32,000 bases of DNA, taken from positions 90,001-122,000 of the forward strand of contig NZ_LGHJ01000012.1 in NCBI RefSeq assembly GCF_001306055.1, in the 5' to 3' direction. How positions within the stretch are numbered: the first letter of the stretch is position 1; the number at the start of each line of letters is the position of its first letter. The notes under the pieces were generated by a model, which did not search any database, had not been told where the DNA came from, and saw only the letters and a list, made by a program, of their open reading frames with translations. Below are positions 1,539 through 31,770 of the stretch, piece after piece. The translations under genes and the position numbers were made by a program. This DNA comes from Bellilinea caldifistulae (lineage in GTDB: Bacteria; Chloroflexota; Anaerolineae; Anaerolineales; Anaerolineaceae).

Positions 1539-1571
1539 AAAATACACCACCGGTGAAGGGGGGTGTATTTT
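1539..1571 (-). terminator. Intrinsic terminator after fliS
   Basis: The minus strand reads AAAATACACC-(13 nt loop)-GGTGTATTTT followed by ACGTTTTTAACGCCTTTTTTATT. This is a 10-bp stem with a U-rich tail, about 70 nt downstream of the fliS stop. Confidence 0.7.
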
Positions 1572-1640
1572 ACTGTGGGAGAAACGCTATGCAATTGTTT
1601 GGAGTGGCACTACCGATAAGCCGATCGCAGGGTGTGGGAG

Positions 1641-2015
1641 TCAGGCTGCCTGCGTAATCGTCGAGGTATAGGCGGTTGCCGGAACGCTGGGCTGGGGCGG
1701 CGGCGCAAAACGTTTTTCGGTCATCTTCCACGCGTCTCGCAATTCTTTCAGCACGTGAATCGCTTCGTCATAATCACCCTTGCGGATGCAGTCCAGACAC
1801 CACTGGTACAGGCGGAACAGACCAACCGCCACTTCGGGATAATCAAAGTTGAGGGCATCGCGCAGGACGCTGATGGCTTTAGTCGCTTTCTCAAAGTCCT
1901 TGACTTCGCAGGACTGAATCGCCAGGTCGTACGCCATGATCACCAGACGGAGCGGGCTGGCGCCCATCACATCTTGCTGCCGGTATTCTTGAGTGCGGTA
2001 TGCAGTCTGGTACAT
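1641..2015 (-). CDS. fliS: Flagellin-specific chaperone FliS
   Basis: MYQTAYRTQEYRQQDVMGASPLRLVIMAYDLAIQSC...FDYPEVAVGLFRLYQWCLDCIRKGDYDEAIHVLKELRDAW is a typical FliS four-helix pattern. I prefer the internal ATG at 2015 (GAGGAG SD upstream). The 168-aa ORF-track version (to 2147) would overlap flaG. Confidence 0.8.
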   Translation of the reverse strand: MYQTAYRTQEYRQQDVMGASPLRLVIMAYDLAIQSCEVKDFEKATKAISVLRDALNFDYPEVAVGLFRLYQWCLDCIRKGDYDEAIHVLKELRDAWKMTEKRFAPPPQPSVPATAYTSTITQAA

Positions 2016-2074
2016 GATTCGGGTCTCCTCTGAATTCGTTCTTGCCGGGGTGATTTTGGTATTGACTACCCTTA

Positions 2075-2101
2075 GTTTCGACTGACCGGCGGCAAACTTT
2101 A
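2075..2101 (-). promoter_or_regulatory. Possible weak sigma-28-type promoter in front of fliS
   Basis: The minus strand reads TAAAGTTT...(TAAA-N15)-GTCGAAAC. The -35 part matches the extended TAAAGTTT consensus exactly. The -10 matches GCCGATAA at only 5 of 8 positions. Confidence 0.25.
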
Positions 2102-2130
2102 GCCCTGCGCGGTAAATTCTGCGTAAAAAC

Positions 2131-2439
2131 TCACGCCAGCAGTTCAATCAAATCGCCGGCTTTGAGTTTACTCAATTCATCCGGCGGGATGGTGCGGATA
2201 ATCTGGCGCGAGGCGCGGTCCATAATGTACACCGTCACTTCGTGGGTTTCGCGGTTCACATTAAAGCGCAAAACCACGTCCGAGGTACGCGGTTGGGAAG
2301 AAGGGCTGGGGGATGACTCGCCTATTTCGCTGCGGCGTGGAGCAGCTGCCTTTTCGCTGTAAAAATCCACCACCTGCTGAATCCGTGCGGACGAATCGCC
2401 AGCCGGTGGGGAAACCGGGGTAACGTTCATTTCGTTCAT
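2131..2439 (-). CDS. flaG: FlaG family flagellar protein
   Basis: 102 aa. The C-terminal LRFNVNRETHEVTVYIMDRASRQIIRTIPPDELSKLKAGDLIELL matches the FlaG family pattern (...v.v.Vvd..tgevIRqiPpee.l.l...). It lies between fliD and fliS. Confidence 0.75.
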   Translation of the reverse strand: MNEMNVTPVSPPAGDSSARIQQVVDFYSEKAAAPRRSEIGESSPSPSSQPRTSDVVLRFNVNRETHEVTVYIMDRASRQIIRTIPPDELSKLKAGDLIELLA

Positions 2440-2509
2440 CTCGTCACCTCATTTCTTGCATCCTTGCATGTCCAAAAATTCGGTTCAACGGTTCCATCCG
2501 TCCCGCAGA

Positions 2510-4225: not shown

Positions 4226-4250
4226 GGGCATCTCCCTCATTCAGGGGGTG

Positions 4251-4285
4251 AGCGGGGGGCGGCTCACTTACGGCTGCCCCCCGCT
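4251..4285 (-). terminator. GC-rich stem-loop between fliC and fliD (possible partial terminator or 3' stabiliser; no U-tract)
   Basis: AGCGGGGGGC (4251-4260) pairs with GCCCCCCGCT (4276-4285), giving a 10-bp G/C stem with a 15-nt loop. It starts 33 nt after the fliC stop. An alternative GTGAGC/GCTCAC helix overlaps it. Confidence 0.35.
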
Positions 4286-4317
4286 TGCTGCCATCGGCGG
4301 ACGGTCAGGTCCGGGGT

Positions 4318-5574
4318 TTAGCGGAACAGCGAGAGCAGGAACTGCGGAGCAGTGTTGGCCTGCGCCAGCATCGCGGTTGCCGTCTGTTGCAGGATCAGGT
4401 ACTTGCTGGCATTGACCTGTTCTTCGGCCATGTTGGCGTTCATGATGCGGTTGTAAGCGGCTTCAACGTTGATCTGGGCAGCCGCCACCTGGTCTTCCTT
4501 GAAATTCAAGCGGCCGATGAATGCACCGAGGGTTGACATTTGCTGTGCGACATAGTCCAGCTTGCCGTCCAGGTAGGTCATGTAGTCACGGAAATCCTGG
4601 GCGGACACCAAAGCGCCACCCGTATCGCCGTTCTTCTGCACATCATACGTGCCGGCTTTGGTGTAGTTCACTGTGGCAGTGTAAGTACCATTTGCCAGGC
4701 CGCCGTTCAAATTCACGACCAGACCATTACCAAAGTTGACGGCAACATCACCACCACTCAGATCAACCGTTAATCCATAACCAACGGCACCAGTCCCATT
4801 GGCATTTTGAGCAATCAGGTATTGGGTTGAGCCACTAGCGTCAAACAGGCGAACCACCGAGCTGGCTCCATTGGCTTGTACTTGCACCGTATAGGTACCG
4901 GATTGGAGTTCACTCAAGTTAGAGTTAATCGTTCCGCTGGTGCTGACACCATTGGTATTGTCAATGATGTCGCTGGCATCGGCAGAAACTGAGGCAGATG
5001 AGGTACCCGTCTTGAGTGCCAGTTTCAGACTGTCTCGCCCATTGTTAATGCCGGTTGCTGCAAGGTTGTCCAAACCGCTGACGGATGTGAAATCATTCTG
5101 CCCATAACCGGTCTGGAAGGTCAACGCTGTGGAGTAGTAGCTGGCGTCAATGAGTTTGTTGCCATTCCACTCTGTCTGAGCGGCAATGTCATCAATTTGA
5201 GCAGCGTAGGCAGCCAGTTGGGTCTTGATGATCTGGCGCTCGGCAGACCCCATCGTGTCGCTGGCAGCCTGAGCGGCTTTGTTGCGCATCTGTACCAGGA
5301 TGTCATTGATCCGGCTTACGCCTGCTTCTGCCACGGCCAGCAGGTTCTTGGCATCGCCGATGTTGCCAAGGGCAACTTTCAAACCTTCTGAACGGAACTG
5401 CAATTTGCTGGCGATGGACAAGCCGGCCGGGTCATCCGCTGCGGAGTTAATCCGTTTACCGGTTGCCAGACGGGTCTGGTAGATCGCCAGTTGCTTGTTG
5501 ATGCCCTGCAAAGAATTGAGGGCGTTCATTGCGCCGATATTACCGGCAATTCGAGTGATATCTATCTCAGCCAT
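4318..5574 (-). CDS. fliC: Flagellin
   Basis: 418 aa. The N-terminal IGAMNALNSLQGINKQLAIYQTRLATGKRINSAADDPAGLSIASKL and the C-terminal NRIMNANMAEEQVNASKYLILQQTATAMLAQANTAPQFLLSLFR are the canonical flagellin D0/D1 segments. AAGGAGG SD 7 nt before the ATG. Confidence 0.95.
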   Translation of the reverse strand: MAEIDITRIAGNIGAMNALNSLQGINKQLAIYQTRLATGKRINSAADDPAGLSIASKLQFRSEGLKVALGNIGDAKNLLAVAEAGVSRINDILVQMRNKAAQAASDTMGSAERQIIKTQLAAYAAQIDDIAAQTEWNGNKLIDASYYSTALTFQTGYGQNDFTSVSGLDNLAATGINNGRDSLKLALKTGTSSASVSADASDIIDNTNGVSTSGTINSNLSELQSGTYTVQVQANGASSVVRLFDASGSTQYLIAQNANGTGAVGYGLTVDLSGGDVAVNFGNGLVVNLNGGLANGTYTATVNYTKAGTYDVQKNGDTGGALVSAQDFRDYMTYLDGKLDYVAQQMSTLGAFIGRLNFKEDQVAAAQINVEAAYNRIMNANMAEEQVNASKYLILQQTATAMLAQANTAPQFLLSLFR

Positions 5575-6919: not shown

Positions 6920-8350
6920 ATGAACATCGGCAGGAAAAACTCTCATCCCCATCCGACCGGGGAAAATCTGCTCGGCCAGATCACCCTCAACATGCGAGGG
7001 ATCTGGCAGCGCCAATCCCCCCGCCAGCAAGCCGGATTGTTGATTCTGGTGCTTGCCGCGTTGTTGCTTTCAACCCTGCCGCTTGCCAGCCTGGCGCTTT
7101 CCTTAAATCCCTATCTTCCGGTCATCGAGCGGGTTAGCGGACTGCTCGCCTCTCAACCCGGTTTTGAAGACAAACTCGCCGCCCTGGAACAATTCAAAAC
7201 CACCTTGCTGCCAGCCGACCTGGTTCAGTCCGTCAGTGAGCAGCTCATCCTGCCGGAGGAAAGCACGCCCGGCTTGTCCGACCCCACCCCAGAGCAACTG
7301 CAGACCAACACCCCTGACCGGCAGCAGCTTTCAGCAATCGCCCACTCGATTTTAACCCTGCAAAAGTCCTTCGAAATTCCGCTCAACACCCCTCAACTTG
7401 CGGTCTGGCTTCGTCAATTAAACAGCGAGGATGCGCTGCTCAGGCTGCAAGCCGTTGAAGGGATTTACCGCAATACCCCAGCCGTCTTGCGTAGATTGTA
7501 CGACGTTCGGCGTGCCAACCTGACTCTCATCCGTCAGATCAACAGTTTGACGGGCGACAACGGGTTGAATGCTTTTACCCTGAAACAGCCCATCTCTTCA
7601 CCGGTCAGTTCCTTGCCGGATTCAACCTACATCAGCTTAATCCGCTTAAGTCGCGCCTGCCAGTCGGTCGAAATTCAACTGGCTAACACCACCTACCTGC
7701 TCAATCAAATCTTTCAGGAAATTGAGCCGGTTTACCGTCAGGACCTCCTCTGGGGATTTTCCATCTGGCTGAAGGCAGCCGGCTGGATCTGGCAGCAACG
7801 AATGACCTTGCTCATCCTCTCCTTGGGGTTACTGGTGTGTTCCGGTTTGCTGTTATTTTGGCAGTCCTTGTCCAAAAATCTGCGGCCAGGCAGTCTGCTC
7901 GTTCGATTCGGCTTCCCCAGGGAAACTCCCCGTCCGCACGCCGAGAGCCGGAAAGCCGGCCATTCCTTTGCCGCACAAAGCAACTGGCTGGTGAATGACC
8001 TTGCCCGGAGGCATGGGGGAAAACCGCTGCAAATCTCGCGGAGGGGCAGCATCCAGCGTCCGCATCTGCTCATCCCCGTCAGCGGTAAAGCGCCGATTGA
8101 AAAGCCGCTGCCGGCCGATGGAATCGTGCGCATCGGGAACGACCCCGCTTTCCCGGTCAAGATTCCACTTTCCGGTGCGGAATATATCGAACTGTGGATC
8201 CGCAAGGCCAGGAAAGGGTATTATCTGGAAGTTATGTTCAGCGACATCCCGGTGTTGATCAATCAAGAACCGGTCAAATCTGCCCGCACGCTGAATGATG
8301 GAGATACCATCCAGATTCATGATAGCCTGCTCGTATTTCGAGAGCGCTGA
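6920..8350 (+). CDS. Membrane protein with a C-terminal FHA-like domain
   Basis: 476 aa. TM helices are at LLILVLAALLLSTLPLASLAL and LLILSLGLLVCSGLLLFW. The C-terminus IVRIGNDPAFPVKIPLSGAEYIELWIRKARKGYYLEVMFSDIPVLINQEPVKSARTLNDGDTIQIHDSLLVFRE follows the FHA pattern, with degenerate GR/S..H positions. The start is uncertain; ATG 6992 (MRGIWQ...) is an alternative. Confidence 0.6.
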   Translation: MNIGRKNSHPHPTGENLLGQITLNMRGIWQRQSPRQQAGLLILVLAALLLSTLPLASLALSLNPYLPVIERVSGLLASQPGFEDKLAALEQFKTTLLPADLVQSVSEQLILPEESTPGLSDPTPEQLQTNTPDRQQLSAIAHSILTLQKSFEIPLNTPQLAVWLRQLNSEDALLRLQAVEGIYRNTPAVLRRLYDVRRANLTLIRQINSLTGDNGLNAFTLKQPISSPVSSLPDSTYISLIRLSRACQSVEIQLANTTYLLNQIFQEIEPVYRQDLLWGFSIWLKAAGWIWQQRMTLLILSLGLLVCSGLLLFWQSLSKNLRPGSLLVRFGFPRETPRPHAESRKAGHSFAAQSNWLVNDLARRHGGKPLQISRRGSIQRPHLLIPVSGKAPIEKPLPADGIVRIGNDPAFPVKIPLSGAEYIELWIRKARKGYYLEVMFSDIPVLINQEPVKSARTLNDGDTIQIHDSLLVFRER

Positions 8351-10862: not shown

Positions 10863-13800
10863 TTGAACTTCCGAAATTTTCTACGCGGTTTGATTTTCCT
10901 GCTGGTGTCCATTGTCTCATTGGGGACGCCAGCATACCCCGCTCAAGCGTACACCGGTCAGATCCGCTTCGATCATCTGACGGTTGAAGACGGTCTTTCG
11001 CAAAGTTCTGTTTGGGCAATTGTTCAGGACCGGCAGGGTTTCCTCTGGTTTGGCACCGAGGAAGGGCTGAACCGCTACGACGGTCTTGGTTTTGAAATCT
11101 TCAAACACGACCCTCAAAACCCGAACAGCCTGCAATCGAACGTTATTTCCAGCCTGTACCTTGACCGCAGCGGCGACCTGTGGATTGGCACCACCAGCGG
11201 TCTGGATCGCTATCGCATCAGCCAGAATGAATTCGATCACTACCCGCTGGTTGAAATCGGCCAGGCTGGCTTATGGGGCAGCACGATTGAAGCCGTGTTA
11301 CAAGATGAACACGGCATTCTTTGGGTGGCAACCCAGGCCGGCGGGTTGAACCGCCTCAACCCCGCAAACGGAGAAATTCTCCACTTCATGCCGGTTGAAA
11401 ACGACCCCAAAAGCCTGCCCAGTCGGGATGTTTACGACCTTGCTCCTGATGGATTGGGCGGTTTGTGGCTGGCAACCGATGGGGGTTTGAGCCATTACGA
11501 CCCGACCAGCGGCTATTTCACGCATTATCGTTACAACCGCTTCAACCCCTACTCGCTCAGCGATAATCGCTGCCGTTCGCTTTTCGTTGACCATGAGGGA
11601 ACTTTATGGATTGGCACGGAGCGCGGCGGCTTGAATCGGATGATTTCGGCAACCGGACGATTCGAGCGCTACCAGAACGACCCCGATGATCCGGCTTCTT
11701 TGATTTCCAATCAGGTGTTCGATATTCTTCAGGACGAGCGGGGAGTTATTTGGGTTGCCACCCGCGAGGGAATCAGCCTGCTGCAACCGGGCAGCACCCA
11801 ATTCAGCCACCTTCGCAAAGACCGTAACGACTCTGCCAGTTTAAACAACAACGTGGTCACTGCCCTTTATGAAGACCGCGGCGCGGTGATGTGGGTGGGG
11901 ACATTTGGCGGGGGTGTCAATCGGTTTGCACCTTTCGCCAATAAGTTTCAGCGCTACACCCAGCGCCCCGGCGACCTCTCCAGTCTGAGCGACAGCACAG
12001 TTTTCGCCATCAGCCAGACGCCGGATGGGACAATCTGGATTGGCACGCTTTCCGGTGGTCTGAACCGCTTGGAACGAGAAAGCGGGCGGATGCGTTACTA
12101 CTATCACCTGCCAAACAACCCGGAAAGCATTGCCAGCAACGATATTCGCGCATTGTTCACCGATCACACAGGCACACTCTGGATTGGCACAGCCAACGCC
12201 GGCGTTGACCGGTTCGACCCCGTAACCAACTCCTTCATCCACTATATGCTGGATCCACAAAACCGCAATCAAACGGCTCAGTATTCCATTACCACCTTCT
12301 TCGAAGACTCCCAGATGCGGCTTTGGGTGGGCACCCGAGGTTATGGATTCCACCGCTTTGAACCCGAAAGCCAGACCTTCGTGCGTTACACACTTCCATC
12401 TGCGAACAATTCCGCTCAATTGATACGGTCAATCCGCGAAGATGAAAACGGCTACCTGTGGATTGCCACATATGACGGCGTTTTTGTCTTTGATCCGCGC
12501 ACGGAACAATTCGTCCGCCAATACCACGCCGGGGATCGCCAGAACGGTTCACTTTCGTCGAATACCGTCCTCAGCATGTATCTTCAAGATGAAGAGACGG
12601 CCTGGTTCGGCACATGGAGCGGCGGTTTGAACCGGCTTGACCGTCAAACCGGCGTCTTCACCGTCTTCACCGAGAAGGACGGCCTCGCCAATGACACCGT
12701 CTATGCCATCCTGCCCGATTCGAGCGGTAATTTGTGGCTAAGCACCAACCGCGGACTTTCGCGTTTCGATCCGGTGACCCGCAACTTTCGGAATTATGAT
12801 GTCAGTGATGGACTGACCGGCAACGAATTCAACGCCGGGGCAGCCTTTATATCCCCTCAGGGAGAATTCTTTTTCGGCGGCGTCAACGGAATGATCAGTT
12901 TTTACCCCGATCAAGTTAAGGATAATCCCTTCCCGCCGCCGGTCATAATCCGTTCCTTCTCTCTCTACAATCAGGTTGAGCGGACAAACCTGCCGGATGG
13001 CGAAACCATCTCATTGAGTTATCGGGACACCTTCATCAGTTTTGAATTTGCCGCCCTTGACTTTACCGCCCCGCACAAAAATCGGTTTGCCTACAAACTG
13101 GAAGGTTTCGACAGTGACTGGAATGATTTGGGCAATCGCAATTTTGTGACCTTCACCAATCTGCGCGGCGGCGATTATGTCCTGCGGGTCAAAGCCGCCA
13201 ACAATGACGGAGTCTGGAATGAAGCGGGCATTGCCGTAAATCTTCAGGTAACTCCCCCGTTTTACACACGCGGCTGGTTCATCCTGCTCAGCGGGCTGGG
13301 CGTGCTGGGACTGGTTTATGCCGGTTACCGCTTACGCCTGCAGCGGGTCGAAAGCCAGAAACGCGCCCTGGAACAGATCATCCTGGAACGCACCCACGAA
13401 ATTGAGCGCCGCCGAGAAGTTGCCGAGGGCCTGCGCGAAATCATCGCCATCCTGAATACCAACCAGTCCCTCCAGGAAAGCCTGGATTACATCATCCATC
13501 AGGCTCTCCAATTGGTAAATGCCCGCCATGCGCTGATTTTTTACCACCCTCCCGGTGAGCCGCCTCAGGAAATGGCCGGAGAACTGCCCCCGAACCTGCA
13601 AGCCTACGCGGCTTTGGTGGAAGAAACCCTCAAAGGACAGATCACCTTAATCAAGGACATGCGCGAGTACCGCCAGCAGCATCCCCGAAAAGCCTTGTTC
13701 CCCGGCGAAAATGGGGCTTTGCTGGCCATTCCTCTTGCAAGCGGTGATCATGTGGATGGCGGGTTGATCCTTTCCTTTTCTCAACCGGGGGCTCTCTCCG

Positions 13801-14498
13801 AAGAAGATTATAAAACCGCCCTGACGCTTGCCGATCAGGCTGCCCTGGCCATCGGCAATGCCAATTTACGCCGGCAGGCAGAGGAACTGGCCAAAATCAG
13901 CGAGCGCAGCCGAATCGCCCGCGACCTGCATGACGCCGTGACCCAGACCCTGTTTGCCAGCACGCTGATTGCCGATGTGCTGCCCCGCCTCTGGCAGCGT
14001 AATCCCCAGGAAGGCCTGCGCAGGTTGGAAGAACTACGCCTGCTCAGTCGTGGCGCCCTGGCGGAGATGCGTTCCCTGCTGGTGGAATTACGCCCCGGCT
14101 CACTGTTGGAGGCCGACTTGTCGGAGTTGATTCAGCAATTGTGTGATGCATTCACCAGCCGTACCCGGCTTCAAATCACCTGCAGCATTCAACCGGTGGC
14201 AAAGCAGCCCGCCGATGTGCAAATTGCCTTTTACCGCATCGCTCAGGAAGCCCTGAACAACATCGCCCGCCACGCTCACGCCCAACGGGTAGGAGTAGAT
14301 CTTATCCATGATGGAGACAGCCTGAGGTTGACCATACGCGATGACGGCCACGGCTTTGACCAGCACAACGTACCACCGGCTCATTTTGGGCTGGAAATTA
14401 TGCGGGAGAGAGCCCTGTCCATCAAAGCCGACCTGCAAGTCCAAAGCGCACCTGGGAAGGGCACCTGCATCCGCCTGACCTATCGGTACGCCAAATAG
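10863..14498 (+). CDS. Sensor histidine kinase: signal peptide, two-component-regulator propeller repeats, Y_Y_Y domain, TM, GAF, HisKA_3, HATPase_c
   Basis: 1211 aa with a TTG start. There are many repeats of the type LWIGT..GLNRY/F. A Y_Y_Y-like segment reads YKLEGFDSDWNDLGNRNFVTFTNLRGGDYVLRVKAANNDGVWN, and a TM helix reads WFILLSGLGVLGLVYAGY. A GAF-like region follows. The HisKA_3 H-box is RSRIARDLHDAVTQTLF, and the ATPase has an N-box (QEALNNIARHA) and a G-box (DDGHGF). No response regulator gene is adjacent. Confidence 0.85.
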   Translation: MNFRNFLRGLIFLLVSIVSLGTPAYPAQAYTGQIRFDHLTVEDGLSQSSVWAIVQDRQGFLWFGTEEGLNRYDGLGFEIFKHDPQNPNSLQSNVISSLYLDRSGDLWIGTTSGLDRYRISQNEFDHYPLVEIGQAGLWGSTIEAVLQDEHGILWVATQAGGLNRLNPANGEILHFMPVENDPKSLPSRDVYDLAPDGLGGLWLATDGGLSHYDPTSGYFTHYRYNRFNPYSLSDNRCRSLFVDHEGTLWIGTERGGLNRMISATGRFERYQNDPDDPASLISNQVFDILQDERGVIWVATREGISLLQPGSTQFSHLRKDRNDSASLNNNVVTALYEDRGAVMWVGTFGGGVNRFAPFANKFQRYTQRPGDLSSLSDSTVFAISQTPDGTIWIGTLSGGLNRLERESGRMRYYYHLPNNPESIASNDIRALFTDHTGTLWIGTANAGVDRFDPVTNSFIHYMLDPQNRNQTAQYSITTFFEDSQMRLWVGTRGYGFHRFEPESQTFVRYTLPSANNSAQLIRSIREDENGYLWIATYDGVFVFDPRTEQFVRQYHAGDRQNGSLSSNTVLSMYLQDEETAWFGTWSGGLNRLDRQTGVFTVFTEKDGLANDTVYAILPDSSGNLWLSTNRGLSRFDPVTRNFRNYDVSDGLTGNEFNAGAAFISPQGEFFFGGVNGMISFYPDQVKDNPFPPPVIIRSFSLYNQVERTNLPDGETISLSYRDTFISFEFAALDFTAPHKNRFAYKLEGFDSDWNDLGNRNFVTFTNLRGGDYVLRVKAANNDGVWNEAGIAVNLQVTPPFYTRGWFILLSGLGVLGLVYAGYRLRLQRVESQKRALEQIILERTHEIERRREVAEGLREIIAILNTNQSLQESLDYIIHQALQLVNARHALIFYHPPGEPPQEMAGELPPNLQAYAALVEETLKGQITLIKDMREYRQQHPRKALFPGENGALLAIPLASGDHVDGGLILSFSQPGALSEEDYKTALTLADQAALAIGNANLRRQAEELAKISERSRIARDLHDAVTQTLFASTLIADVLPRLWQRNPQEGLRRLEELRLLSRGALAEMRSLLVELRPGSLLEADLSELIQQLCDAFTSRTRLQITCSIQPVAKQPADVQIAFYRIAQEALNNIARHAHAQRVGVDLIHDGDSLRLTIRDDGHGFDQHNVPPAHFGLEIMRERALSIKADLQVQSAPGKGTCIRLTYRYAK

Positions 14499-21023: not shown

Positions 21024-21044
21024 GGTCATATTTTTGGTCATATT
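21024..21044. repeat. Direct repeat GGTCATATT-ttt-GGTCATATT in the divergent desaturase / secreted-protein intergenic region
   Basis: Two identical 9-mers with a 12-bp centre-to-centre spacing, about 90 nt upstream of the desaturase start. Confidence 0.6.
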
Positions 21045-21111
21045 CCCGCCCTTCACGCCATCCTTTCAATTACCCATCAGCCCGTCACAAATCGGTATAA
21101 TTAAAGGGACA

Positions 21112-22512
21112 ATGCCAATAATTCTCAAGCGCATCCTGAACCTGCTACTTGTTCTTCCAGTCATCCTGCTGAACGCTGCCCCCGCCGCGGCAAGCCATGT
21201 TGCCCAAGATGCTCCACCCGGTTTTTACCCGGTTGCCGAAGCGCCTGCCGTAACCCTCTTTCGCAAAGAATATCCCGGCGGCACACCGGATTATGTACTG
21301 GTCGTAAATCTCGCTCACCACGCCGCCCTGCAGGTATTGACCGGCGAGACTTCCGCCGCCAACGATCCCAACGCTGGCGCTTCTTTCGTCCCGCAACCCA
21401 TGGATACCTTTTGGGAACAATTTGCCAACAACAACAAGGACGCCTTTTGTGTAATTGGCGGGCCTTTCTTCCCTGATGCTCCATTCAACGACCGTTTGGG
21501 CCTGAAAGCCAACAGCGTCGTGCGCCGTGCCGACAATTCCGCCGGCGAGTCGCTTCCACCGCTGGTCATGCTGGAAGTGTGGGATGATTCTGCCCGTCTC
21601 AGTCCCTACACCGACACCGCCTTTCAGCAGTCACCTGCCCCGCTGGTCATCGTCGGCCTTAGCCCGCAAGCCGAACGACAGCCCCAGGCCTTCCTCAGCC
21701 GCAGTCTGGCAGGTGTACAAGACCGGGACGGGGATGGAGCCTTTGAAACGGTGTTGTTCTTTGCGTCCAAAACCACCCGTCAGTCGGATGCCGTCGAGGT
21801 TTTGCGATCTTTTGGCGCCCAGGAAATTTTCCTGCTGGCGGATGGGGAGGCGGCTCAAATCAATTGTCAGGGTGTTCCCTTTGTCTTTGCCGAGCGCCAG
21901 TTGCCGGTCGGATTAGGGATTTCAGCCGGATTCATCGCCGATTACGAATCGGTTCTCGTCCGGCACACCGAATGGCCGATTGCCACCCAAGGCGAATCGG
22001 TACAGGTGGAAATTGTGGTACGCAATAACGGCAGCCAGGTCTGGCAGCCGGGAGAAGTGTACCTTGCCAACCTGCGCAACGATTGGGGCATCGGCAATCG
22101 CCTTGAAATCGGTACACCGGTCGCCCCCGGTCAAACGGCCACGTTCTCCTTCACCAGCCAGCCCTTCAAGCGGCCGGGTGTGTACACCTCCCAGTGGGCA
22201 ATTCAACGTGGGGGGCAAAACATCAGCGCCCGGCCAATTTTGGTCAATGCCGTCGTTCTACCGCAGGAGCTGGCCGCCCGTAAGCAGGAATTGGAAGCTC
22301 AAATTCAGGAATGGGCACGCCAGAAATTGGAAAATATCGAAGAAATGATCTTGAACTGGATTGAAAGTCAGATCCGCCGTGGTTTTGACCGCATCTGTCC
22401 CTCTGCCGCCCTGCTACCGGGCTTTGCTCTGCTGGCGGGATGGGTCAACAGCCGTTTGAGTCGTTCACAAAAGGAAAACGGAGATGAAAAACTCACTATC
22501 CGGAGTCGTTGA
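21112..22512 (+). CDS. Secreted/anchored protein: signal peptide, phosphodiester-glycosidase (NAGPA/DUF2233)-like region, NBR1-like Ig domain, coiled coil, C-terminal TM
   Basis: The start is MPIILKRILNLLLVLPVILLNAAPAAAS (signal peptide). FCVIGGPFF ... ETVLFFASK...EVLRSFGAQEIFLLADGEAAQ resembles the NAGPA fold. SVQVEIVVRNNGSQVWQPGEVYLANL...PGQTATFSFTSQPFKRPGVYTSQWAI resembles NBR1-type Ig domains. A TATAAT box lies 10 nt before the ATG. The functional assignment is tentative. Confidence 0.5.
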   Translation: MPIILKRILNLLLVLPVILLNAAPAAASHVAQDAPPGFYPVAEAPAVTLFRKEYPGGTPDYVLVVNLAHHAALQVLTGETSAANDPNAGASFVPQPMDTFWEQFANNNKDAFCVIGGPFFPDAPFNDRLGLKANSVVRRADNSAGESLPPLVMLEVWDDSARLSPYTDTAFQQSPAPLVIVGLSPQAERQPQAFLSRSLAGVQDRDGDGAFETVLFFASKTTRQSDAVEVLRSFGAQEIFLLADGEAAQINCQGVPFVFAERQLPVGLGISAGFIADYESVLVRHTEWPIATQGESVQVEIVVRNNGSQVWQPGEVYLANLRNDWGIGNRLEIGTPVAPGQTATFSFTSQPFKRPGVYTSQWAIQRGGQNISARPILVNAVVLPQELAARKQELEAQIQEWARQKLENIEEMILNWIESQIRRGFDRICPSAALLPGFALLAGWVNSRLSRSQKENGDEKLTIRSR

Positions 22513-23464: not shown

Positions 23465-26344
23465 CTAATTGAGGGACTTACCGGCTGCCTGTACCGCTGC
23501 TTCCAGCCGATCGAGCGCACCGAGAAACTCGGCCGTGACCGCCTCCACCTCGCGGGCTGTGTGTTCAAATTCCTGAAGATTGCCGTTGTGGAAAGTCTCA
23601 ACGGCCTGCCGTGTCAGTTGATGGAAACGAATATGAACCTCTTCCAGCGCTTCAAACTGGGGCAGATTTCCATAATGCTGCTTCCCTGCCCCATAGTACC
23701 AGCGCCCCAGTGAACACTGCTCGTGAGTCACCACGCCGTAGTTGTTCAAGCGATTTTCCAGGCGGGCAATCCGCAAGCGGCGCAGCCAGGCGCTGTGTGC
23801 CTGCCGCACCAGTTGAAAACGCAGTGAGGTATCTCTGCCGTTGTCGGTCTGAAAGTTAGCCACCATTTGAATCAGCGTTTGTGCCAGTTCCGCCAGTAAA
23901 TTCGCCGAACGGGAGACCTCCTCAACCTGTGCGCTCATCTCCTCGGTCGAAGCCGAAACCTCTTCCACCGCAGCGCTGTTCTGCTCACTGATGCTGGCGA
24001 TATTTTCGATGGCCTCGCCCACTTCGCCGGATCCGGCCGCCATTTCTTCGGTGGCCGCCGTGTTCTCCTCTACAATCGCCGAAACGCTGTCCATGGCGCT
24101 GGCGAGTTCCTCCGCCAGTTGATCAATTCTCAAAGTTGCCCGGGCAATTTCCTCACCCGATTGCAGTCCTTGTTGCGAGGCACGCAGCAGCTCATCCAAC
24201 GCCCGGCGCGACTGATCCGCCAACCCCACCCCTTGCTGGACTTCCCGGCCGCTTTCAGCCATGGAACGGACGGCCTCTTCCACCGCTTTTTGAATTTCGC
24301 GAATCAAAGCCGCAATTTCACGGGTTGCCTGGCGGGCTTGTTCGGCCAGCTGGTATACCTCCTGCGCTACCACGGCGAAACCGTTGATTCGTAATTCAAA
24401 CTTCTTCAAACTGGACACATTGAAGCCAATCTGCACAATGCCGGGCCGATCGGCGCGGGAAACGCCGACGAACTTGTACACCTCATCATCAAAAGATCGT
24501 TTTTGCGACTCCTGACATAAAACACCGTCTTTTTGGTGAATCAACTGCCGGAAGGGATAAGCCTGTTCTTTGGGGTCGGTGGGGAATTTCCAACCAATCA
24601 ACTTGGAATCGTTCGACAGCACCACCACGCCGTCCTCATCGGTTGCCAGAATCATATCCAGTTGGGCAGCCTCTCCCAGTCTTTGCCAGTCACTGAGCGG
24701 CCGCTTATCCCACCCTGAAAGCAGCAAGTGGTTGATGATCCGACATTGGGCGGTCATCATGCGGTCGAGCATCACTTCGGTCATTTTCTTGCTTTGCACC
24801 TCGGCATGGGCGGCTTCAATGGCGGCGTTAATCGCAAGGATGTTGGTCTTGGCGGCAATGTCATCAATCGTTTCCAGAATCATGCCAATTTGCCGGGAAC
24901 GGTTGCCCATTTCCTGCACTTTTTGGGTAGATAGATCCACAACGTTTCGAATGCGCTCCATCCCGCGTGCGGTATCTTCCACCACCCGTGCCGTATGCTG
25001 GCTGGTTTCAACTGCACGGCCGGAAGTCAAAACCTGCTGCTCGGCGGAAACCCGAATCTCACGGACTGCCTGGGTGATTTGATTGGCCACTTCAGCCGCT
25101 TTGCCCACGGCTGCCGCCTGTTCCTGCGCCCCTCGCGCCACACCGTCAATTGCCCGTGTCATTTGATGAATAGACGAACTGGTCTGACTGACCGCTGTCG
25201 CCTGCTGGGAAATTCCCTGGGCAACCTGTTGAATGGTCATCGCAATTTGAGAACTGGCCTGTCCGCTTTGATCGGCCGCACCGGATAACTCATCCGAGGC
25301 TTTGCTGACCGTCAAGGCGCTGTTGGCAAACTGACCGATCAGCGTTCGCAGTCTTTCCACCATCTGTTTGAGGGTGTTTCCCAGCAAGTCATCTTCGCCT
25401 TTCGGCTCCAATTGAACGGCAAGGTTGCCCTCCCCCAATGCCTGAGCCACCGCAGCCACATCCTCCAGGTAGGTCTGAGTTTCCAACAAACCCGCAGCCA
25501 GTTTTCCGGCTTCATCTTGCCGGCGCGTCAGCCGGGCAATTTTCTCCATCTGATCGAAGTCCATCTGCAAGGCTCCCCGCGCAATTTCATGCAAATGGGC
25601 AGTTACTTGCTCCAGGGGTCGGGTGATGTGCAGGCTGAGCGACAGGCTGGCAACCAGCGAAAGACCGGCAGCCAACAGACTGGCTATCATCAATACCGCA
25701 GCGGCGGAGCGGTAGGTGCGTTCGCTGGACTGATAGACATTTTCAGCAACGGTTTCACTGGCCTTCACCAGTTCATCGAAGGATTGACTGACCAGTTTCT
25801 TATTCTGAGCCAGGCTGCCGCTATTGAGCGAGTCATACACCACCGAGCGGTTGCCGCTATCGGTCAGGCTCATCGCCTCCAATACCGCACGCTGATACGA
25901 TGACCAGTAAATCTTGAAATTGGTCAACGCCTGCACGGCATCCGGCGGGACTTTTCCCCTCTCGTATTCACCCAAAAAGGCGTTGATGGCATCCATGTTG
26001 CGCTTCAGGGTTTCACGGATTTCAGGACGGTTTTCCGGCAGCATCACATAAGTCAGCAGGTTGCCGTGCAATTCATACAGCGTTTTATGGGCGGTTCCCA
26101 GCGTTTTTATAGGGAGCGTCTGGTCAAGGTAAATCACCTCCACGCTGCGTTGAATTTGTTGCAAATGGAAAAAACCCACGGCTGCAACCAGCAGAACAAA
26201 CACAACCCCCATGATTGCCGATCCAACCAGTTTCGTACGAGTATTGAAGCGACTCAAATCCACCTTTGCGACTCCTTTCCATCCATTGAAAAAGAAGGGG
26301 TTAACGCCATTTAGGTTATAGCGGTTTGACCCGTAAAAATCCAA
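23465..26344 (-). CDS. Methyl-accepting chemotaxis protein: 4HB-type sensor, TM2, HAMP, signalling domain interrupted at the tip, C-terminal CZB domain
   Basis: 959 aa. TM1 is GSAIMGVVFVLLVAAVGFF and TM2 is AAAVLMIASLLAAGLSLVASLSL. The tip motif is split into NILAINAAIEAAHAE (aa 501-515) and GFAVVAQEVYQLAE (aa 655-668). The C-terminus has CZB motifs THEQCSLGRWYY and HIRFH. The true start may be GTG 26263 (GGAG SD 8 nt upstream, giving MDLSRFNTRTKLVG...). Confidence 0.85.
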   Translation of the reverse strand: MDFYGSNRYNLNGVNPFFFNGWKGVAKVDLSRFNTRTKLVGSAIMGVVFVLLVAAVGFFHLQQIQRSVEVIYLDQTLPIKTLGTAHKTLYELHGNLLTYVMLPENRPEIRETLKRNMDAINAFLGEYERGKVPPDAVQALTNFKIYWSSYQRAVLEAMSLTDSGNRSVVYDSLNSGSLAQNKKLVSQSFDELVKASETVAENVYQSSERTYRSAAAVLMIASLLAAGLSLVASLSLSLHITRPLEQVTAHLHEIARGALQMDFDQMEKIARLTRRQDEAGKLAAGLLETQTYLEDVAAVAQALGEGNLAVQLEPKGEDDLLGNTLKQMVERLRTLIGQFANSALTVSKASDELSGAADQSGQASSQIAMTIQQVAQGISQQATAVSQTSSSIHQMTRAIDGVARGAQEQAAAVGKAAEVANQITQAVREIRVSAEQQVLTSGRAVETSQHTARVVEDTARGMERIRNVVDLSTQKVQEMGNRSRQIGMILETIDDIAAKTNILAINAAIEAAHAEVQSKKMTEVMLDRMMTAQCRIINHLLLSGWDKRPLSDWQRLGEAAQLDMILATDEDGVVVLSNDSKLIGWKFPTDPKEQAYPFRQLIHQKDGVLCQESQKRSFDDEVYKFVGVSRADRPGIVQIGFNVSSLKKFELRINGFAVVAQEVYQLAEQARQATREIAALIREIQKAVEEAVRSMAESGREVQQGVGLADQSRRALDELLRASQQGLQSGEEIARATLRIDQLAEELASAMDSVSAIVEENTAATEEMAAGSGEVGEAIENIASISEQNSAAVEEVSASTEEMSAQVEEVSRSANLLAELAQTLIQMVANFQTDNGRDTSLRFQLVRQAHSAWLRRLRIARLENRLNNYGVVTHEQCSLGRWYYGAGKQHYGNLPQFEALEEVHIRFHQLTRQAVETFHNGNLQEFEHTAREVEAVTAEFLGALDRLEAAVQAAGKSLN

Positions 26345-28696: not shown

Positions 28697-29245
28697 ATGA
28701 CACTCACACTGTACTTTGACGGTCTCTTTATGGGCATTCCCAAAAAGAATTGCCCCGCCCACGGCGCCGGCTTCATGTGTTACGGTTGGATTGCCTGGCG
28801 CGGCAGCCGCATTATTGCTCGCGGGCACGGCGGCTACCTGCGCGGCCGGGATGCCAGCAGTAACATTGCTGAATACCTGGCGTTGATTGAAGGGCTGGAA
28901 GCGCTGCGGGATATGGGCGTGGAAGGTGAAACCATCCACATCATCGGGGATGCCAAATCGGTCATTGAGCAAATGGAAGGGGTCGCCTCGGTTCATTCCG
29001 ACCAGATTCGCCCCTTGTACGAAAAGGCTCAGCGCATCGCAGCCGGATTTGCCCATTTAGATTGGCGCTGGATTCCACGCAAGCACAACCGCGAAGCCGA
29101 TGCCCTCACCCGCCGGGCACTGCGTCAGATTCGCTCCAATCCGAACAGTTATTCGGCGGCATTGAAAGCCATCAACCCGGCCCTGCCCGGCAGTCACCCC
29201 ACCCGCAAGTTCTGGCCGGTACTGGATTTACGAATCTACTGCTGA
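28697..29245 (+). CDS. RNase H-like protein (RNase HI / RVT_3 type)
   Basis: 182 aa. Candidate DEDD residues lie in YFDG, NIAEYLALIEGL, IIGDAKSVI and NREADALT. Confidence 0.7.
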   Translation: MTLTLYFDGLFMGIPKKNCPAHGAGFMCYGWIAWRGSRIIARGHGGYLRGRDASSNIAEYLALIEGLEALRDMGVEGETIHIIGDAKSVIEQMEGVASVHSDQIRPLYEKAQRIAAGFAHLDWRWIPRKHNREADALTRRALRQIRSNPNSYSAALKAINPALPGSHPTRKFWPVLDLRIYC

Positions 29246-29829
29246 GACAGCCTCTCCGCAAAACGCTCAATTTGTTCCTGCTGAACGCGGGTCAGACGAA
29301 TGAAAATCCGCACCTGCCGAATTTTCGCCCACGCCTGAGAGGGCGTTAAACCTTCCGAAATCAAACAGGCGGCTGCCATGCTGGGTGCCCGTCCCACCCC
29401 TGCTCCGCAATGGATATACACCTTACCACCCTCATTCTTGATCTGCCGATAAAACTCAACCCCTGCCTGCAAATCCTCCAGCGAAGGCGCGGCATCGTCC
29501 ACCGTGGGGAGATGAAGGTAAGCGGGAAAATCCAGGCCCAGTTGACGATCATCGAACTCAGCCCGCAGATTGATGACGCCTCGAATGCCCCACCGTTCTA
29601 AAATCCGCCAGCCGCCTTGACGAAACTGCGCCCCGACAAACAGATGGGGGGTAATTTCGCACTGCTCACGAATGGGGCGGTCTAAAACCAGACGGTTGAA
29701 CACATTGAACAACCACCAAAAGGTAGCCCGCACTCCCTGAGTCACCAACCGTACCCGAAACAGGCGTAAAAATTTGGCCAGATCCATGCTTGCTTCGCGG
29801 CTGGTTTTACCCTCTATCTCCACTTTCAT
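29236..29829 (-). CDS. Dual-specificity (Cys-based) protein phosphatase family protein
   Basis: The CX5R P-loop is IHCGAGVGRAPS. The start is ambiguous: ATG 29829, GTG 29823 (AAGGAG 6 nt upstream) or the ORF-track TTG 29847. Its 3' end overlaps the RNase H-like gene convergently by 10 nt. Confidence 0.7.
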   Translation of the reverse strand: MKVEIEGKTSREASMDLAKFLRLFRVRLVTQGVRATFWWLFNVFNRLVLDRPIREQCEITPHLFVGAQFRQGGWRILERWGIRGVINLRAEFDDRQLGLDFPAYLHLPTVDDAAPSLEDLQAGVEFYRQIKNEGGKVYIHCGAGVGRAPSMAAACLISEGLTPSQAWAKIRQVRIFIRLTRVQQEQIERFAERLSQQ

Positions 29830-29895
29830 CTCCTTAACACACAGCAATGCCGCGATTGTAGCCGTTCAGCAGGCAGAAATCAAGTTAAGGTTCGG

Positions 29896-30816: not shown

Positions 30817-31731
30817 TCATACCACCGTTTCCACAATGCGGGTCAGCACATGACGCTCGACCTGCGCATCGTTGTGGGGTGTCGGCACATCCCGGAACAG
30901 ATACCAGTCCTCGACATGCTCGATGAAGCCCTGAGGGGGAATGGTTTGCAGCGGGCCAAGCGTTTCCAGTTCCAAAAAGCGTTCGTTGATAAAAACCTCG
31001 ACATTGCAGCCCAAATCGGGATAGACCGCCTCGCCTGCCACCGCAAAGCGTTTGATGAACAAATGTCCACGGCGGGCATAGGCACACCACCCGCTGGGGA
31101 TGAAGGCGCCAATCTTCTGGGCGATTTTGATCAAGGGGTCTTGGCGCACCAGCAAGTACTGACGGCCCCAAATCAAGCGCGCATCGCTCAGGTCGGTATA
31201 CGGCCACAACGCAAGGGAATTGACCGGCAGTAAACCAGCCGGATCGGTATGCGGCAGGCGCGGCGGCATCGGTAAAATGGCCGTGCCGCCGGAAAGCATC
31301 ACCGAGAGCGCCCAAGGGGCAAGCCGCACATCCCATAACCCGCGGTTATACAACCGATGAATCACCCGTACATGAGTTCCCACCGGCGAAAGGCGGATAT
31401 CCATCTCCTTCTGGATGCCGGTGGTGCGCTCAACCGGTTGAGTAACACGAACACCGTCCCCCAAATCCTGCCAGACGAGAGGTTCATTATCGGGGTAGTA
31501 GGTACGCGGGTCGGCTTCCGGCGCATGCCACAGGCGGTGACCGCCGTACATCCGCCATCCATCCCTGCCCGCTTGGCCCTGGTCTTCCTCGATTTCGGCA
31601 AATTCGTTTTCCTCATCGAGGAAACCGTACCGCAAAATCCGTGGCCCGAATTGAGTAGAGACAATCACATCCACCAGTTCATTTCGAAAGCGGATGCACT
31701 CCTGCCAGCCGTTGAACGATACCATCTCCAT
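30817..31731 (-). CDS. Hypothetical protein, galactose-mutarotase-like (DUF4380-like)
   Basis: About 304 aa from ATG 31731. VDVIVSTQFGPRILRYGF...GGHRLWHAPE...LELETLGPL resembles DUF4380/aldose-epimerase-like proteins. This assignment comes from memory of the family pattern only. It lies 9 nt upstream of the PfkB kinase, so it is probably in the same operon. Confidence 0.5.
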   Translation of the reverse strand: MEMVSFNGWQECIRFRNELVDVIVSTQFGPRILRYGFLDEENEFAEIEEDQGQAGRDGWRMYGGHRLWHAPEADPRTYYPDNEPLVWQDLGDGVRVTQPVERTTGIQKEMDIRLSPVGTHVRVIHRLYNRGLWDVRLAPWALSVMLSGGTAILPMPPRLPHTDPAGLLPVNSLALWPYTDLSDARLIWGRQYLLVRQDPLIKIAQKIGAFIPSGWCAYARRGHLFIKRFAVAGEAVYPDLGCNVEVFINERFLELETLGPLQTIPPQGFIEHVEDWYLFRDVPTPHNDAQVERHVLTRIVETVV

Positions 31732-31770
31732 AAGACCTACCACCCTCACTCCAGGATTCGATGCCGGACT

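What the first reader, a model, noticed from the sequence alone, without database searches (positions are those of the whole stretch)
24383..24799. Chemoreceptor whose signalling hairpin tip is split by a ~139-aa non-coiled-coil insertion (and which also carries a C-terminal CZB domain)
The most conserved MCP motif is normally contiguous at the cytoplasmic hairpin tip (roughly ..NLLALNAAIEAARAGE-GRGFAVVA-EVR-LAE..). In this protein it is interrupted. Residues 501-515 read NILAINAAIEAAHAE. About 139 aa follow (VQSKKMTEVMLDRMM...LDMILATDEDGVVVLSNDSKLIGWKF...YKFVGVSRADRPGIVQIGFNVSSLKKFELRIN). Residues 655-668 then resume with GFAVVAQEVYQLAE. By my reading the two flanking helical arms are about equal (about 175 aa each, from about 340 to 515 and from 655 to about 830). 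The insert therefore sits at the U-turn where CheA and CheW normally dock. The insert has an alternating strand/helix pattern reminiscent of PAS/Cache-type ligand-binding modules, not heptads. The reading frame is continuous, composition looks native, and there are no intein hallmarks. The same protein ends in a zinc-binding CZB domain (THEQCSLGRWYY, HIRFH). I am not aware of a described receptor class with a globular domain at the hairpin tip. Such a domain would have to change array packing or kinase coupling, or it could serve as a cytoplasmic sensor placed at the output end.
Basis: partly seen in the sequence, partly recalled or inferred. Interest (0 to 1): 0.7.

Follow-up and report, generated by a model that had tools for sequence, protein, structure and literature searches.

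The report
Sensor domain inserted at chemoreceptor tip
A bacterial chemotaxis receptor carries a ligand-sensor-type (Cache-like) domain spliced into the hairpin turn that normally controls the kinase; this is a conserved and apparently undescribed receptor class in Chloroflexota, so it raises the question of how signalling arrays accommodate a sensor at the output end.

Summary
The 959-aa ORF (window 23465-26344, minus strand) is a transmembrane MCP. Its tip motif NAAIEAAHAE / GFAVVAQEV is split by 139 aa (aa 516-654, window 24383-24799), which replace the 4-residue U-turn.

- **Not an artefact.** Three independent MAG assemblies are colinear across both junctions. At least 14 Chloroflexota species genomes and 76 of the top 150 50%-identity clusters carry the same insertion. 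The spacing is fixed at 147-151 residues, against 15 in normal MCPs.
- **Fold and relatives.** AlphaFold2 (pLDDT about 87) and Foldseek give a Cache/PDC fold. Its N-terminal helix continues the receptor's N-arm, and the MCP hairpin is preserved. The closest sequence relatives are the membrane-distal modules of extracellular dCache-like sensors in Bacillota MCPs with normal tips.
- **Pathway context.** Kinase- and CheW-contact residues are kept. Homologues lie in complete cheA-cheW-cheY-cheB-cheR operons, and some have no other sensor domain.
- **Free-standing form.** About 220-aa "tip helices + Cache" proteins also exist, often directly downstream of a sensor-less MCP.

Best reading: a cytoplasmic sensor acting directly on the kinase-control tip. 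The function is inferred. I found no publication or Pfam/NCBIfam model for it.

The parts
23465..26344 (-). Whole MCP ORF (959 aa from TTG; the likely true start is GTG at 26263, giving 932 aa)
   Evidence: orthologues L007/L009 are 932 aa
25712..26248 (-). Periplasmic four-helix-bundle sensor (4HB_MCP_1, aa 33-211), flanked by TM1 (aa 39-57) and TM2 (aa 214-232)
   Evidence: Pfam E=3.2e-23; hydropathy scan
25319..25636 (-). HAMP region (aa 237-294 plus a second HAMP-like stretch to about aa 342)
   Evidence: Pfam HAMP, 2 stretches; the second boundary is by inspection
24800..25318 (-). N-arm of the signalling hairpin (about aa 343-515), ending in the tip motif KTNILAINAAIEAAHAE
24383..24799 (-). 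139-aa Cache/PDC-like domain inserted in place of the U-turn (aa 516-654). Conserved motifs: GWxFPxDPxxQA and [FY]K[FY]VGVSRxDxPGIVQ
23831..24382 (-). C-arm of the signalling hairpin (aa 655 to about 838). It starts with GFAVVAQEVYQLAE (F656 is the Tsr F396 equivalent) and has four methylation-consensus EE/EQ sites at aa 759, 766, 787 and 794
23600..23797 (-). C-terminal chemoreceptor zinc-binding (CZB) domain (aa 850-915)
   Evidence: Pfam PF13682 E=5.6e-12, 46.3 bits against a 29.4 cutoff; NCBIfam DgcZ-like stretch at aa 844-953

Best explanation
Shown: the protein is a transmembrane methyl-accepting chemotaxis protein with a long heptad class (about 25-26 heptads per arm). Its four-residue hairpin turn has been replaced by a 139-aa Cache-type (PDC/PAS-like) module. 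The module's long first helix is a direct continuation of the receptor's N-arm. Its last strand returns through a short linker into the C-arm at the invariant Gly-Phe. The antiparallel hairpin and the residues that contact CheA-P5, CheW and neighbouring dimers are preserved. This is one member of a conserved 'tip-Cache' receptor class in Chloroflexota (Anaerolineae).

Inferred: the receptor still assembles with CheW and CheA. The tip module is a cytoplasmic small-molecule sensor. Ligand-dependent repacking of its first helix against the beta-sheet changes the N-arm/C-arm packing at the kinase-control tip, around the F396-equivalent stack. This biases CheA directly. The long methylated bundle still provides adaptation, and in this protein it also relays input from the periplasmic 4HB and the C-terminal CZB domains.

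The related 220-aa soluble proteins (short tip-like helices plus the same module) are proposed to deliver the same input in trans to sensor-less MCPs encoded immediately upstream.
For: Position
- The PDB alignment breaks exactly at the U-turn. BLAST of a canonical MCP against tip-Cache MCPs breaks at the same point, and the 179-aa C-arm aligns without gaps.

Reality and conservation
- Three independent MAGs are colinear over 5-8.5 kb across both junctions.
- At least 14 species genomes carry the insertion.
- 76 of the top 150 50%-identity cluster representatives are tip-insert MCPs.
- 79 distinct sequences have N381-to-F396 spacing of 147-151 residues.

Fold
- AF2 gives pLDDT 86-87, and above 90 in the insert. 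The N-arm helix runs on for 27 residues into the domain.
- Foldseek's best hits are TlpB, DctB, WalK, DcuS, CitA, Mlp24 and Tlp3 sensor domains.
- The longer model also matches the Tsr hairpin 1QU7_B, with TM 0.74 and rmsd 3.5 A.

Homology to sensors
- An HMM of the insert matches, end to end (E about 1e-49), the membrane-distal module of TM-flanked N-terminal dCache-like domains. These occur in Bacillota MCPs with normal tips, and also in histidine kinases, GGDEF and SpoIIE proteins.
- The same conserved residue network is kept in all of these contexts.

Still a Che receptor
- The tip consensus IASQTNLLALNAAIEAARA / GFAVVADEVRKLAE is retained. It covers the CheA/CheW contact residues listed in PMC13098124 Table 1.
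- F396 is invariant.
- Methylation-consensus sites are present.
- Tip-Cache MCP genes lie next to cheW in 6 loci. In L014 and L017 they sit inside cheA-(cheC)-cheD-cheY-cheB-cheR-HDOD-cheX-cheX-(cheW) operons.
- Canonical MCPs with the same C-arm length are encoded in the same clusters.

Sensor role
- L013, L014 and L016 have no periplasmic domain, so the insert is their only globular candidate input module.
- L052/L054-type MCPs have the module as their only non-signalling domain, at the C-terminus.

In trans
- In 9 of 22 mini-protein loci the gene lies directly downstream, on the same strand, of a roughly 540-aa sensor-less MCP.
Against: - No ligand, binding pocket or protein partner has been shown.
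- The Pfam Cache models do not reach threshold (sCache_3_2 E=0.17).
- The structure is a monomer prediction and I could not inspect coordinates. The geometry in a dimer, a trimer of dimers or an array is unknown.
- In a trimer of dimers the tips converge. Six extra 15-kDa domains with 27-residue helical extensions may clash unless the helices kink.
- The window's own protein belongs to a subclass with R388H and R404Y. Both are CheA/CheW-contact positions, and its gene is not next to any che gene.
- The strongly conserved SRxDxPG hairpin could be structural rather than ligand-binding.
- The in-trans idea for the mini-proteins rests only on gene adjacency in one subclade. P0060-type loci lack it.
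Confidence: 0.6

Rival explanations
1. Architectural role. The tip domain is not a ligand sensor. It is a packing or docking module that reshapes the baseplate, for example by linking neighbouring receptor dimers beneath the CheA/CheW layer, recruiting an accessory protein, or setting a different array lattice.
For: The domain sits next to the CheW/P5 docking face; the Tsr E391 turn crosslinks to CheW (PMC13098124). The spacing is extremely constrained at 150 +/- 1 residues, which suggests geometric constraint. Mini-proteins keep trimer-contact residues N381 and E385.
Against: The same conserved residue network is kept in extracellular copies, which cannot share a cytoplasmic protein partner. 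All close structural matches are ligand-binding sensor domains. Receptors exist in which it is the only possible input domain.
Confidence: 0.2
2. Uncoupled or decoy receptor. The insertion blocks kinase or adaptor docking. The protein would then be a non-array MCP-like scaffold or a negative regulator (a tip mimic that titrates CheW/CheA), and the mini-proteins would be soluble inhibitors.
For: The insert sits at the most conserved, sterically crowded part of the receptor. The window's protein has R388H and R404Y at contact positions, and its gene is an orphan. Mini-proteins have a degenerate C-arm motif.
Against: Two thirds of the class keep R388 and over half keep R404, and the class keeps the full canonical tip consensus. 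Methylation sites are retained. The genes sit inside complete che operons directly after cheW. The C-arm length is identical to that of co-encoded canonical MCPs.
Confidence: 0.12
3. Artefact or trivial explanation: an assembly chimera, an intein or mobile insertion, or simply extra coiled-coil heptads of a longer receptor class.
For: None beyond prior plausibility for a single metagenome-like sequence.
Against: Three independent assemblies are colinear across both junctions. There are dozens of diverged homologues with the same insertion point. Composition is native. No Hint/intein or transposase hit was found. The insert is predicted with high confidence as a five-stranded alpha/beta domain, not a helix.
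Confidence: 0.01

Closest known systems
Canonical MCP signalling domain (E. coli Tsr 1QU7/8C5V; T. maritima TM1143 2CH7)
   Same: It has an antiparallel coiled-coil hairpin with symmetric arms. The tip consensus includes N381, E385 and the invariant F396, and methylation-consensus sites are present. Homologues are encoded with CheA, CheW, CheR, CheB and CheD.
   Different: The U-turn (Tsr 390-394) is replaced by a 139-aa globular domain. N381-to-F396 spacing is about 150 residues instead of 15. The arms are about 3-4 heptads longer than the 44H TM1143.
Extracellular dCache-type ligand-binding domains of MCPs and kinases (structural neighbours TlpB, DctB, Mlp24, Tlp3, DcuS, CitA; sequence neighbours in Bacillota MCPs such as loci L040-L044 and L047)
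   Same: The fold is the same, with a long N-terminal helix. The match to the membrane-distal module runs over the full length of the insert HMM (E about 1e-49; 35-43% identity over most of the insert), with shared motifs.
   Different: Here it is a single module in the cytoplasm. It is connected to coiled-coil arms rather than to transmembrane helices and a proximal module. It falls below Pfam Cache thresholds.
Known intracellular Cache families (YkuI_C, Diacid_rec) and cytoplasmic PAS-containing chemoreceptors (Aer, Aer2)
   Same: These set a precedent for a Cache/PAS-like sensor working on the cytoplasmic side (PMC4822843). YkuI appears among the Foldseek hits.
   Different: Those domains are N- or C-terminal, or lie upstream of HAMP. 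None is nested in the kinase-control hairpin. There are no Pfam PAS, YkuI_C or Diacid_rec hits here.
Direct cytoplasmic sensing by the signalling domain itself (B. subtilis McpB ethanol sensing, PMC7542364)
   Same: The concept is shared: input enters the receptor on the cytoplasmic coiled coil rather than through the periplasmic domain (abstract only).
   Different: McpB has no added domain, and the ligand acts on the helices. Here a dedicated globular module is present at the tip.
CZB-containing chemoreceptors (TlpD-type) and DgcZ
   Same: A C-terminal CZB domain follows the MCP signalling domain.
   Different: CZB is an ordinary C-terminal appendage. It occurs only in the window's orthologue group (F396 to C-terminus 287-304 aa, against about 180 in other class members). 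It is unrelated to the tip insertion.

Membership tests
Methyl-accepting chemotaxis protein (PF00015 MCPsignal) | Profile match above the curated threshold | tested here: met
   97.3 bits against a 34.6 cutoff, in 4 stretches
Methyl-accepting chemotaxis protein (PF00015 MCPsignal) | Contiguous, highly conserved hairpin tip (NAAIEAARAGExGRGFAVVAxEVR) | tested here: not met
   Both halves are present but 139 aa apart. Spacing is 147-151 residues against 15 in 94 control MCPs
Methyl-accepting chemotaxis protein (PF00015 MCPsignal) | Invariant Phe (Tsr F396) and the trimer / CheA-CheW contact residues | tested here: met
   The Phe is invariant across the family. I377, L378, N381, A383, E385 and A387 are identical here; L380I and V384I are conservative changes; R388H, R404Y and F373A differ
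Methyl-accepting chemotaxis protein (PF00015 MCPsignal) | Symmetric antiparallel arms with heptad periodicity and methylation-consensus sites | tested here: met
   Arms are about 173 and 184 aa. The AF2 hairpin matches Tsr (TM 0.74). There are four consensus sites in the C-arm. The formal Alexander-Zhulin class HMMs were not available
Methyl-accepting chemotaxis protein (PF00015 MCPsignal) | Genomic or functional association with CheA/CheW | tested here: inconclusive
   Met for homologues (L014 and L017 operons; cheW adjacent in 6 loci). The window's own gene has no che neighbour within 32 kb, only flagellar genes about 18 kb away
Cache superfamily (sCache/dCache, PDC fold) | PAS-like alpha/beta core preceded by a long N-terminal helix | tested here: met
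   AF2 secondary structure with pLDDT above 90 in the insert. Foldseek top hits are all Cache/PDC sensor domains, E down to 9e-5
Cache superfamily (sCache/dCache, PDC fold) | Match to a curated Cache sequence model | tested here: not met
   Only sCache_3_2 at E=0.17, 12.4 bits against a 28.4 cutoff. Extracellular homologues hit dCache_1 / Cache_3-Cache_2 only through their proximal module
Cache superfamily (sCache/dCache, PDC fold) | Extracytoplasmic location between two transmembrane helices | tested here: not met
   The insert lies after TM2 and HAMP and has no TM segment. Its Bacillota and other homologues do meet this feature
Cache superfamily (sCache/dCache, PDC fold) | Binds a small-molecule ligand | not testable with these tools
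   No coordinates or binding assay were available
Cytoplasmic PAS domain | Match to Pfam PAS-clan models | tested here: not met
   No PAS family hit at E up to 10 on the insert
CZB (PF13682) | Profile match above threshold with the His/Cys zinc motif | tested here: met
   46.3 bits against a 29.4 cutoff at aa 850-915; HEQC and HIRFH are present
Intein / mobile-element insertion | Hint/splicing motifs, endonuclease or transposase domains, foreign composition | tested here: not met
   No such Pfam or NCBIfam hits. GC3 is 0.64 against 0.62

The most novel reading that the evidence does not exclude
Tip-Cache receptors and the free-standing 'tip helices + Cache' mini-proteins define a new signalling logic. 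A ligand-binding module acts directly on the kinase-control tip, in cis or by plugging into receptor trimers in trans, and so bypasses transmembrane and HAMP signalling. The chemosensory baseplate of these Chloroflexota would then have to be built differently to house six extra domains per trimer of dimers.
Probability: 0.35. Interest if true: 0.9.

Novelty: new variant of a known kind. Interest (0 to 1): 0.8.

Why it matters
The hairpin tip is the most conserved part of chemoreceptors. It is the site where trimers form and where CheA and CheW dock, and current models treat it as a pure output element. A widespread natural class with a sensor-type domain grafted exactly there, encoded inside ordinary che operons, raises several points.

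- **A natural experiment.** It shows how much the tip and the baseplate tolerate.
- **Input at the output end.** It suggests a route for cytoplasmic signals to reach the kinase without passing through the membrane-HAMP-bundle relay.
- **Cache biology.** It extends this Cache-like family to the cytoplasm in three placements: at the tip, at the C-terminus and free-standing.
- **Engineering.** It points to an insertion site, and to soluble tip-mimic modules, for engineered chemoreceptors.

It would also improve annotation. The 220-aa proteins are currently labelled 'hypothetical', and the insert has no family model.

Tried and rejected
- **Profile searches on the insert.** Pfam and NCBIfam on the insert alone gave no usable hit.
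- **Assembly chimera.** Rejected, because three independent MAGs are colinear across both junctions.
- **Intein or mobile element.** Rejected; there are no such domains and the composition is native.
- **Extra heptads of a longer class.** Rejected; the insert is predicted with confidence as a beta-sheet domain and is homologous to sensor modules.
- **Direction of evolution from a domain tree.**
  - The first bootstrap run timed out.
  - The second had a numerical bug and is void.
  - The corrected runs show only that tip, mini, Bacillota N-terminal and C-terminal copies group together against more distant dCache modules. The main mini clade has 94% support and the Bacillota group 95%. The branching among tip, mini and Bacillota copies is unresolved, so the tidy TIP+MINI clade in the single NJ tree should not be relied on.
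- **Recent fission.** I tested whether the sensor-less MCP upstream of the mini-proteins is a recent fission product of a tip-Cache MCP. It is closer to canonical MCPs (56%) than to tip-Cache MCPs (about 35-52%), so there is no support.
- **Taxonomy of divergent class members.** The listing of cluster members returned almost no names.
- **Literature.** Eight full-text searches found nothing on a domain at the MCP tip. One further query was malformed. Subscription-only papers were not searchable.
Full report
**1. Observation**

NILAINAAIEAAHAE is at aa 501-515 and GFAVVAQEVYQLAE at aa 655-668. The 139 residues between them map to window 24383-24799, exactly as reported.

Pfam gives 4HB_MCP_1 (aa 33-211), HAMP (two stretches), MCPsignal in split stretches (97 bits) and CZB (aa 850-915). 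Hydropathy places TM1 at aa 39-57 and TM2 at aa 214-232, with no TM segment in the insert, so the insert is cytoplasmic.

phmmer against PDB aligns aa 476-514 to TM1143 (2CH7) residues 116-154, and aa 654-821 to residues 159-305. The insert therefore replaces only the four-residue U-turn. The C-arm is about three heptads longer than in this 44H receptor.

The likely true start is the GTG at codon 28, which is preceded by GGAAAGGAG. The 97%-identical orthologues are 932 aa.

**2. It is real and conserved**

- A 10-kb stretch around the gene is colinear, at 78-82% nucleotide identity, with three independent MAG assemblies (Bellilinea sp., Anaerolineaceae UBA9135, Chloroflexota MAG175). The alignment runs across both junctions.
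- GC3 of the insert (0.64) matches the rest of the gene (0.62).
- A scan of one genome per species found the same insertion in full-length MCPs of at least 14 Chloroflexota genomes. These MCPs are 684-1013 aa and have various N-terminal sensors or none.
- phmmer of the insert alone against 1.84 billion cluster representatives found 477 clusters at E<=1e-3. Of the best 150, 76 are MCPs with the domain between the two tip half-motifs.
- In 79 distinct sequences the distance from the N381-equivalent to the F396-equivalent is 147-151 residues (mode 150). It is 15 in 94 control MCPs.

**3. What the insert is**

Curated profiles do not recognise it; the best hit is sCache_3_2 at E=0.17.

AlphaFold2 with a 77-sequence alignment gives pLDDT 86, and above 90 across the insert. 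A single helix runs from the N-arm 27 residues past the former tip. A five-stranded alpha/beta unit follows, then a short helix and a lower-confidence linker, and then the C-arm helix, which starts at the Gly-Phe.

Foldseek's best PDB matches are all Cache/PDC sensor domains: TlpB, DctB, WalK, DcuS, CitA, Mlp24 and Tlp3. YkuI also appears among them.

A longer model (aa 416-755, pLDDT 87) gives the same secondary structure. It additionally matches the Tsr cytoplasmic hairpin (1QU7_B, TM 0.74 normalised to Tsr, rmsd 3.5 A), so the predicted hairpin is preserved with the domain at its apex.

**4. Sequence relatives identify the source**

An HMM of the insert matches positions 3-138 of 139 (E about 1e-49) at residues 60-200 of Bacillota MCPs of roughly 610-650 aa. 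In those proteins the domain lies between TM1 and TM2, is followed by a second module with sub-threshold dCache_1 / Cache_3-Cache_2 similarity, and the signalling tip is normal and contiguous.

More distant copies occupy the same position in other proteins:
- histidine kinases;
- a GGDEF protein;
- SpoIIE phosphatases;
- 320-aa Chlorobiaceae proteins.

The same conserved residues recur in every context: D..G, G[WFY].F..PQ, F, Q, D and GV.R.D.PGIVQ.G. The insert is therefore a homologue of the membrane-distal module of an unrecognised dCache-like sensor family, relocated to the cytoplasm.

A second cytoplasmic placement exists. MCPs of about 500-550 aa, with two N-terminal TM helices and no periplasmic domain, carry the module at the extreme C-terminus. 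Examples are Maledivibacter halophilus and a Tissierellia MAG, and at least 12 representative clusters have this form.

Cache families are mostly extracellular. Only the small YkuI_C and Diacid_rec families are known to be intracellular (PMC4822843).

**5. Evidence that these are working Che receptors**

The class consensus around the insert is IASQTNLLALNAAIEAARA ... GFAVVADEVRKLAE, essentially the canonical tip. It includes the residues listed as contacting CheA-P5 and CheW in the 6S1K and 8C5V structures: I377, L380, N381, V384, R388 and R404 (PMC13098124). It also includes the Phe that is invariant in all MCPs (PMC6681711).

The window's protein belongs to a subclass with R388H and R404Y. 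The counts are 20 H/Y and 40 R/R, with a few mixed. It has four methylation-consensus sites in the C-arm.

A CheW probe found cheW next to tip-Cache MCP genes in six loci. In L014 and L017 the gene order is cheA-(cheC)-cheD-cheY-cheB-cheR-HDOD-cheX-cheX-(cheW)-tip-Cache MCP. L017 encodes two tip-Cache MCPs and several canonical MCPs in the same cluster. The 179-aa C-arms of both types align without gaps, so they have the same length class, which would allow them to share an array.

The window's gene itself has no che neighbour. Flagellin, FliD and a rod protein lie about 18 kb away.

**6. Evidence for a sensory role**

L013, L014 and L016 have two TM helices joined by a loop too short to hold a sensor domain, and no other globular domain. 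In these receptors the tip module is the only candidate input. The same argument applies to the C-terminal variants.

The window's protein additionally has a periplasmic 4HB domain and a C-terminal CZB domain, giving three potential inputs.

**7. Free-standing versions**

About 75 clusters of 205-257-aa soluble proteins have this layout:
- a helix of about 30 residues with the N-arm tip motif (INMIAINAAIESAHA, nearly invariant);
- the same module;
- a helix of about 40 residues with a degenerate C-arm motif (VFGILAxEIKNLG, keeping the Phe and Glu).

They occur mostly in Anaerolineae MAGs and are annotated 'hypothetical'.

In 9 of 22 species loci the gene lies directly downstream, on the same strand, of a roughly 540-aa MCP. 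That MCP has no periplasmic domain, a double HAMP, a canonical tip and the same 180-aa C-arm. Other loci lack this neighbour.

The genomes carrying tip-Cache MCPs and those carrying mini-proteins did not overlap in the species scan. This is suggestive only.

**8. Mechanism**

Shown:
- the architecture, its conservation, the fold and the homology to sensor modules;
- retention of tip contacts and methylation sites;
- che-operon context in homologues.

Inferred:
- the receptor docks CheW and CheA through the retained N-arm surface;
- the module hangs below the baseplate on the 27-residue helical extension;
- ligand-dependent repacking of that helix against the sheet alters N-arm/C-arm packing around the F396 stack and so biases CheA;
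- the mini-proteins supply the same input in trans, perhaps by joining trimers through the conserved N381 and E385 contacts.

The main uncertainty is steric. Tips converge in trimers of dimers, so six extensions must kink or splay. I had only monomer predictions and could not inspect coordinates.

**9. Rivals**

- **Architectural or docking role.** Possible, but hard to reconcile with the same conserved residues in extracellular copies.
- **Decoy or uncoupled receptor.** Disfavoured by the conserved contacts, the methylation sites and the operon position after cheW. It remains more plausible for the mini-proteins and for the H388/Y404 subclass.
- **Artefact, intein or extra heptads.** Refuted.

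**10. Novelty**

MCPs, Cache domains and CZB are all known. What appears new:
- the nesting of a Cache-type module in the kinase-control U-turn;
- its breadth as a class in Chloroflexota;
- the soluble tip-mimic versions.

Eight full-text searches, Pfam 2025 and NCBIfam 2026 gave no description of it. Subscription literature and the MiST classification could not be checked. I rate it a new variant of a known kind, with high interest for the chemotaxis field.

Noticed in passing
loci L020-L039, L045, L046, L051; proteins P0002-P0073: There is a family of roughly 220-aa soluble 'tip helices + Cache-like module' proteins in Anaerolineae, annotated as hypothetical. In 9 of 22 species loci the gene lies directly downstream of a roughly 540-aa sensor-less MCP with a canonical tip.
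   Followed up: partly
L052 and L054 (Tissierellia MAG; Maledivibacter halophilus), and representatives P0195, P0205, P0209, P0214 and others: These MCPs have no periplasmic domain and carry the same Cache-like module at the extreme C-terminus, after a normal signalling domain. This is a third placement of the module.
   Followed up: partly
L014:2-9510 and L017:452-19369: The che operons with tip-Cache MCPs contain an HDOD-domain protein and two CheX genes between cheR and cheW/MCP. L017 has two tip-Cache MCPs plus canonical MCPs in one cluster.
   Followed up: partly
L018 (MFD04716.bin.3.317), insert region of the tip-Cache MCP: Two in-frame stop codons lie inside the insert of this orthologue. 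This is either a pseudogene or long-read assembly errors.
   Followed up: no
window 994-5574 (-): A flagellar rod protein, FliD (2510-4240) and flagellin (4318-5574) are encoded here, so this Bellilinea-like Anaerolineae genome encodes flagellar motility.
   Followed up: partly
window 10863-14498 (+): A 1211-aa sensor kinase with Reg_prop/Y_Y_Y beta-propeller repeats, a GAF domain and HisKA_3/HATPase_c.
   Followed up: no
window 6920-8350 (+), 21034-22512 (+), 30817-31749 (-): Three long ORFs (476, 492 and 310 aa) have no Pfam match at E<=1e-5.
   Followed up: no
window 28697-29245 (+) and 29236-29847 (-): A small RVT_3 (RNase H-like) protein lies next to a dual-specificity phosphatase-like protein that matches polymorphic-toxin-associated PTPase models.
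   Followed up: no
tip-Cache MCP class: R388H and R404Y tend to occur together (20 H/Y, 40 R/R, 7 R/Y, 6 H/R). Both positions contact CheA/CheW in E. coli structures. All mini-proteins have H388.
   Followed up: partly
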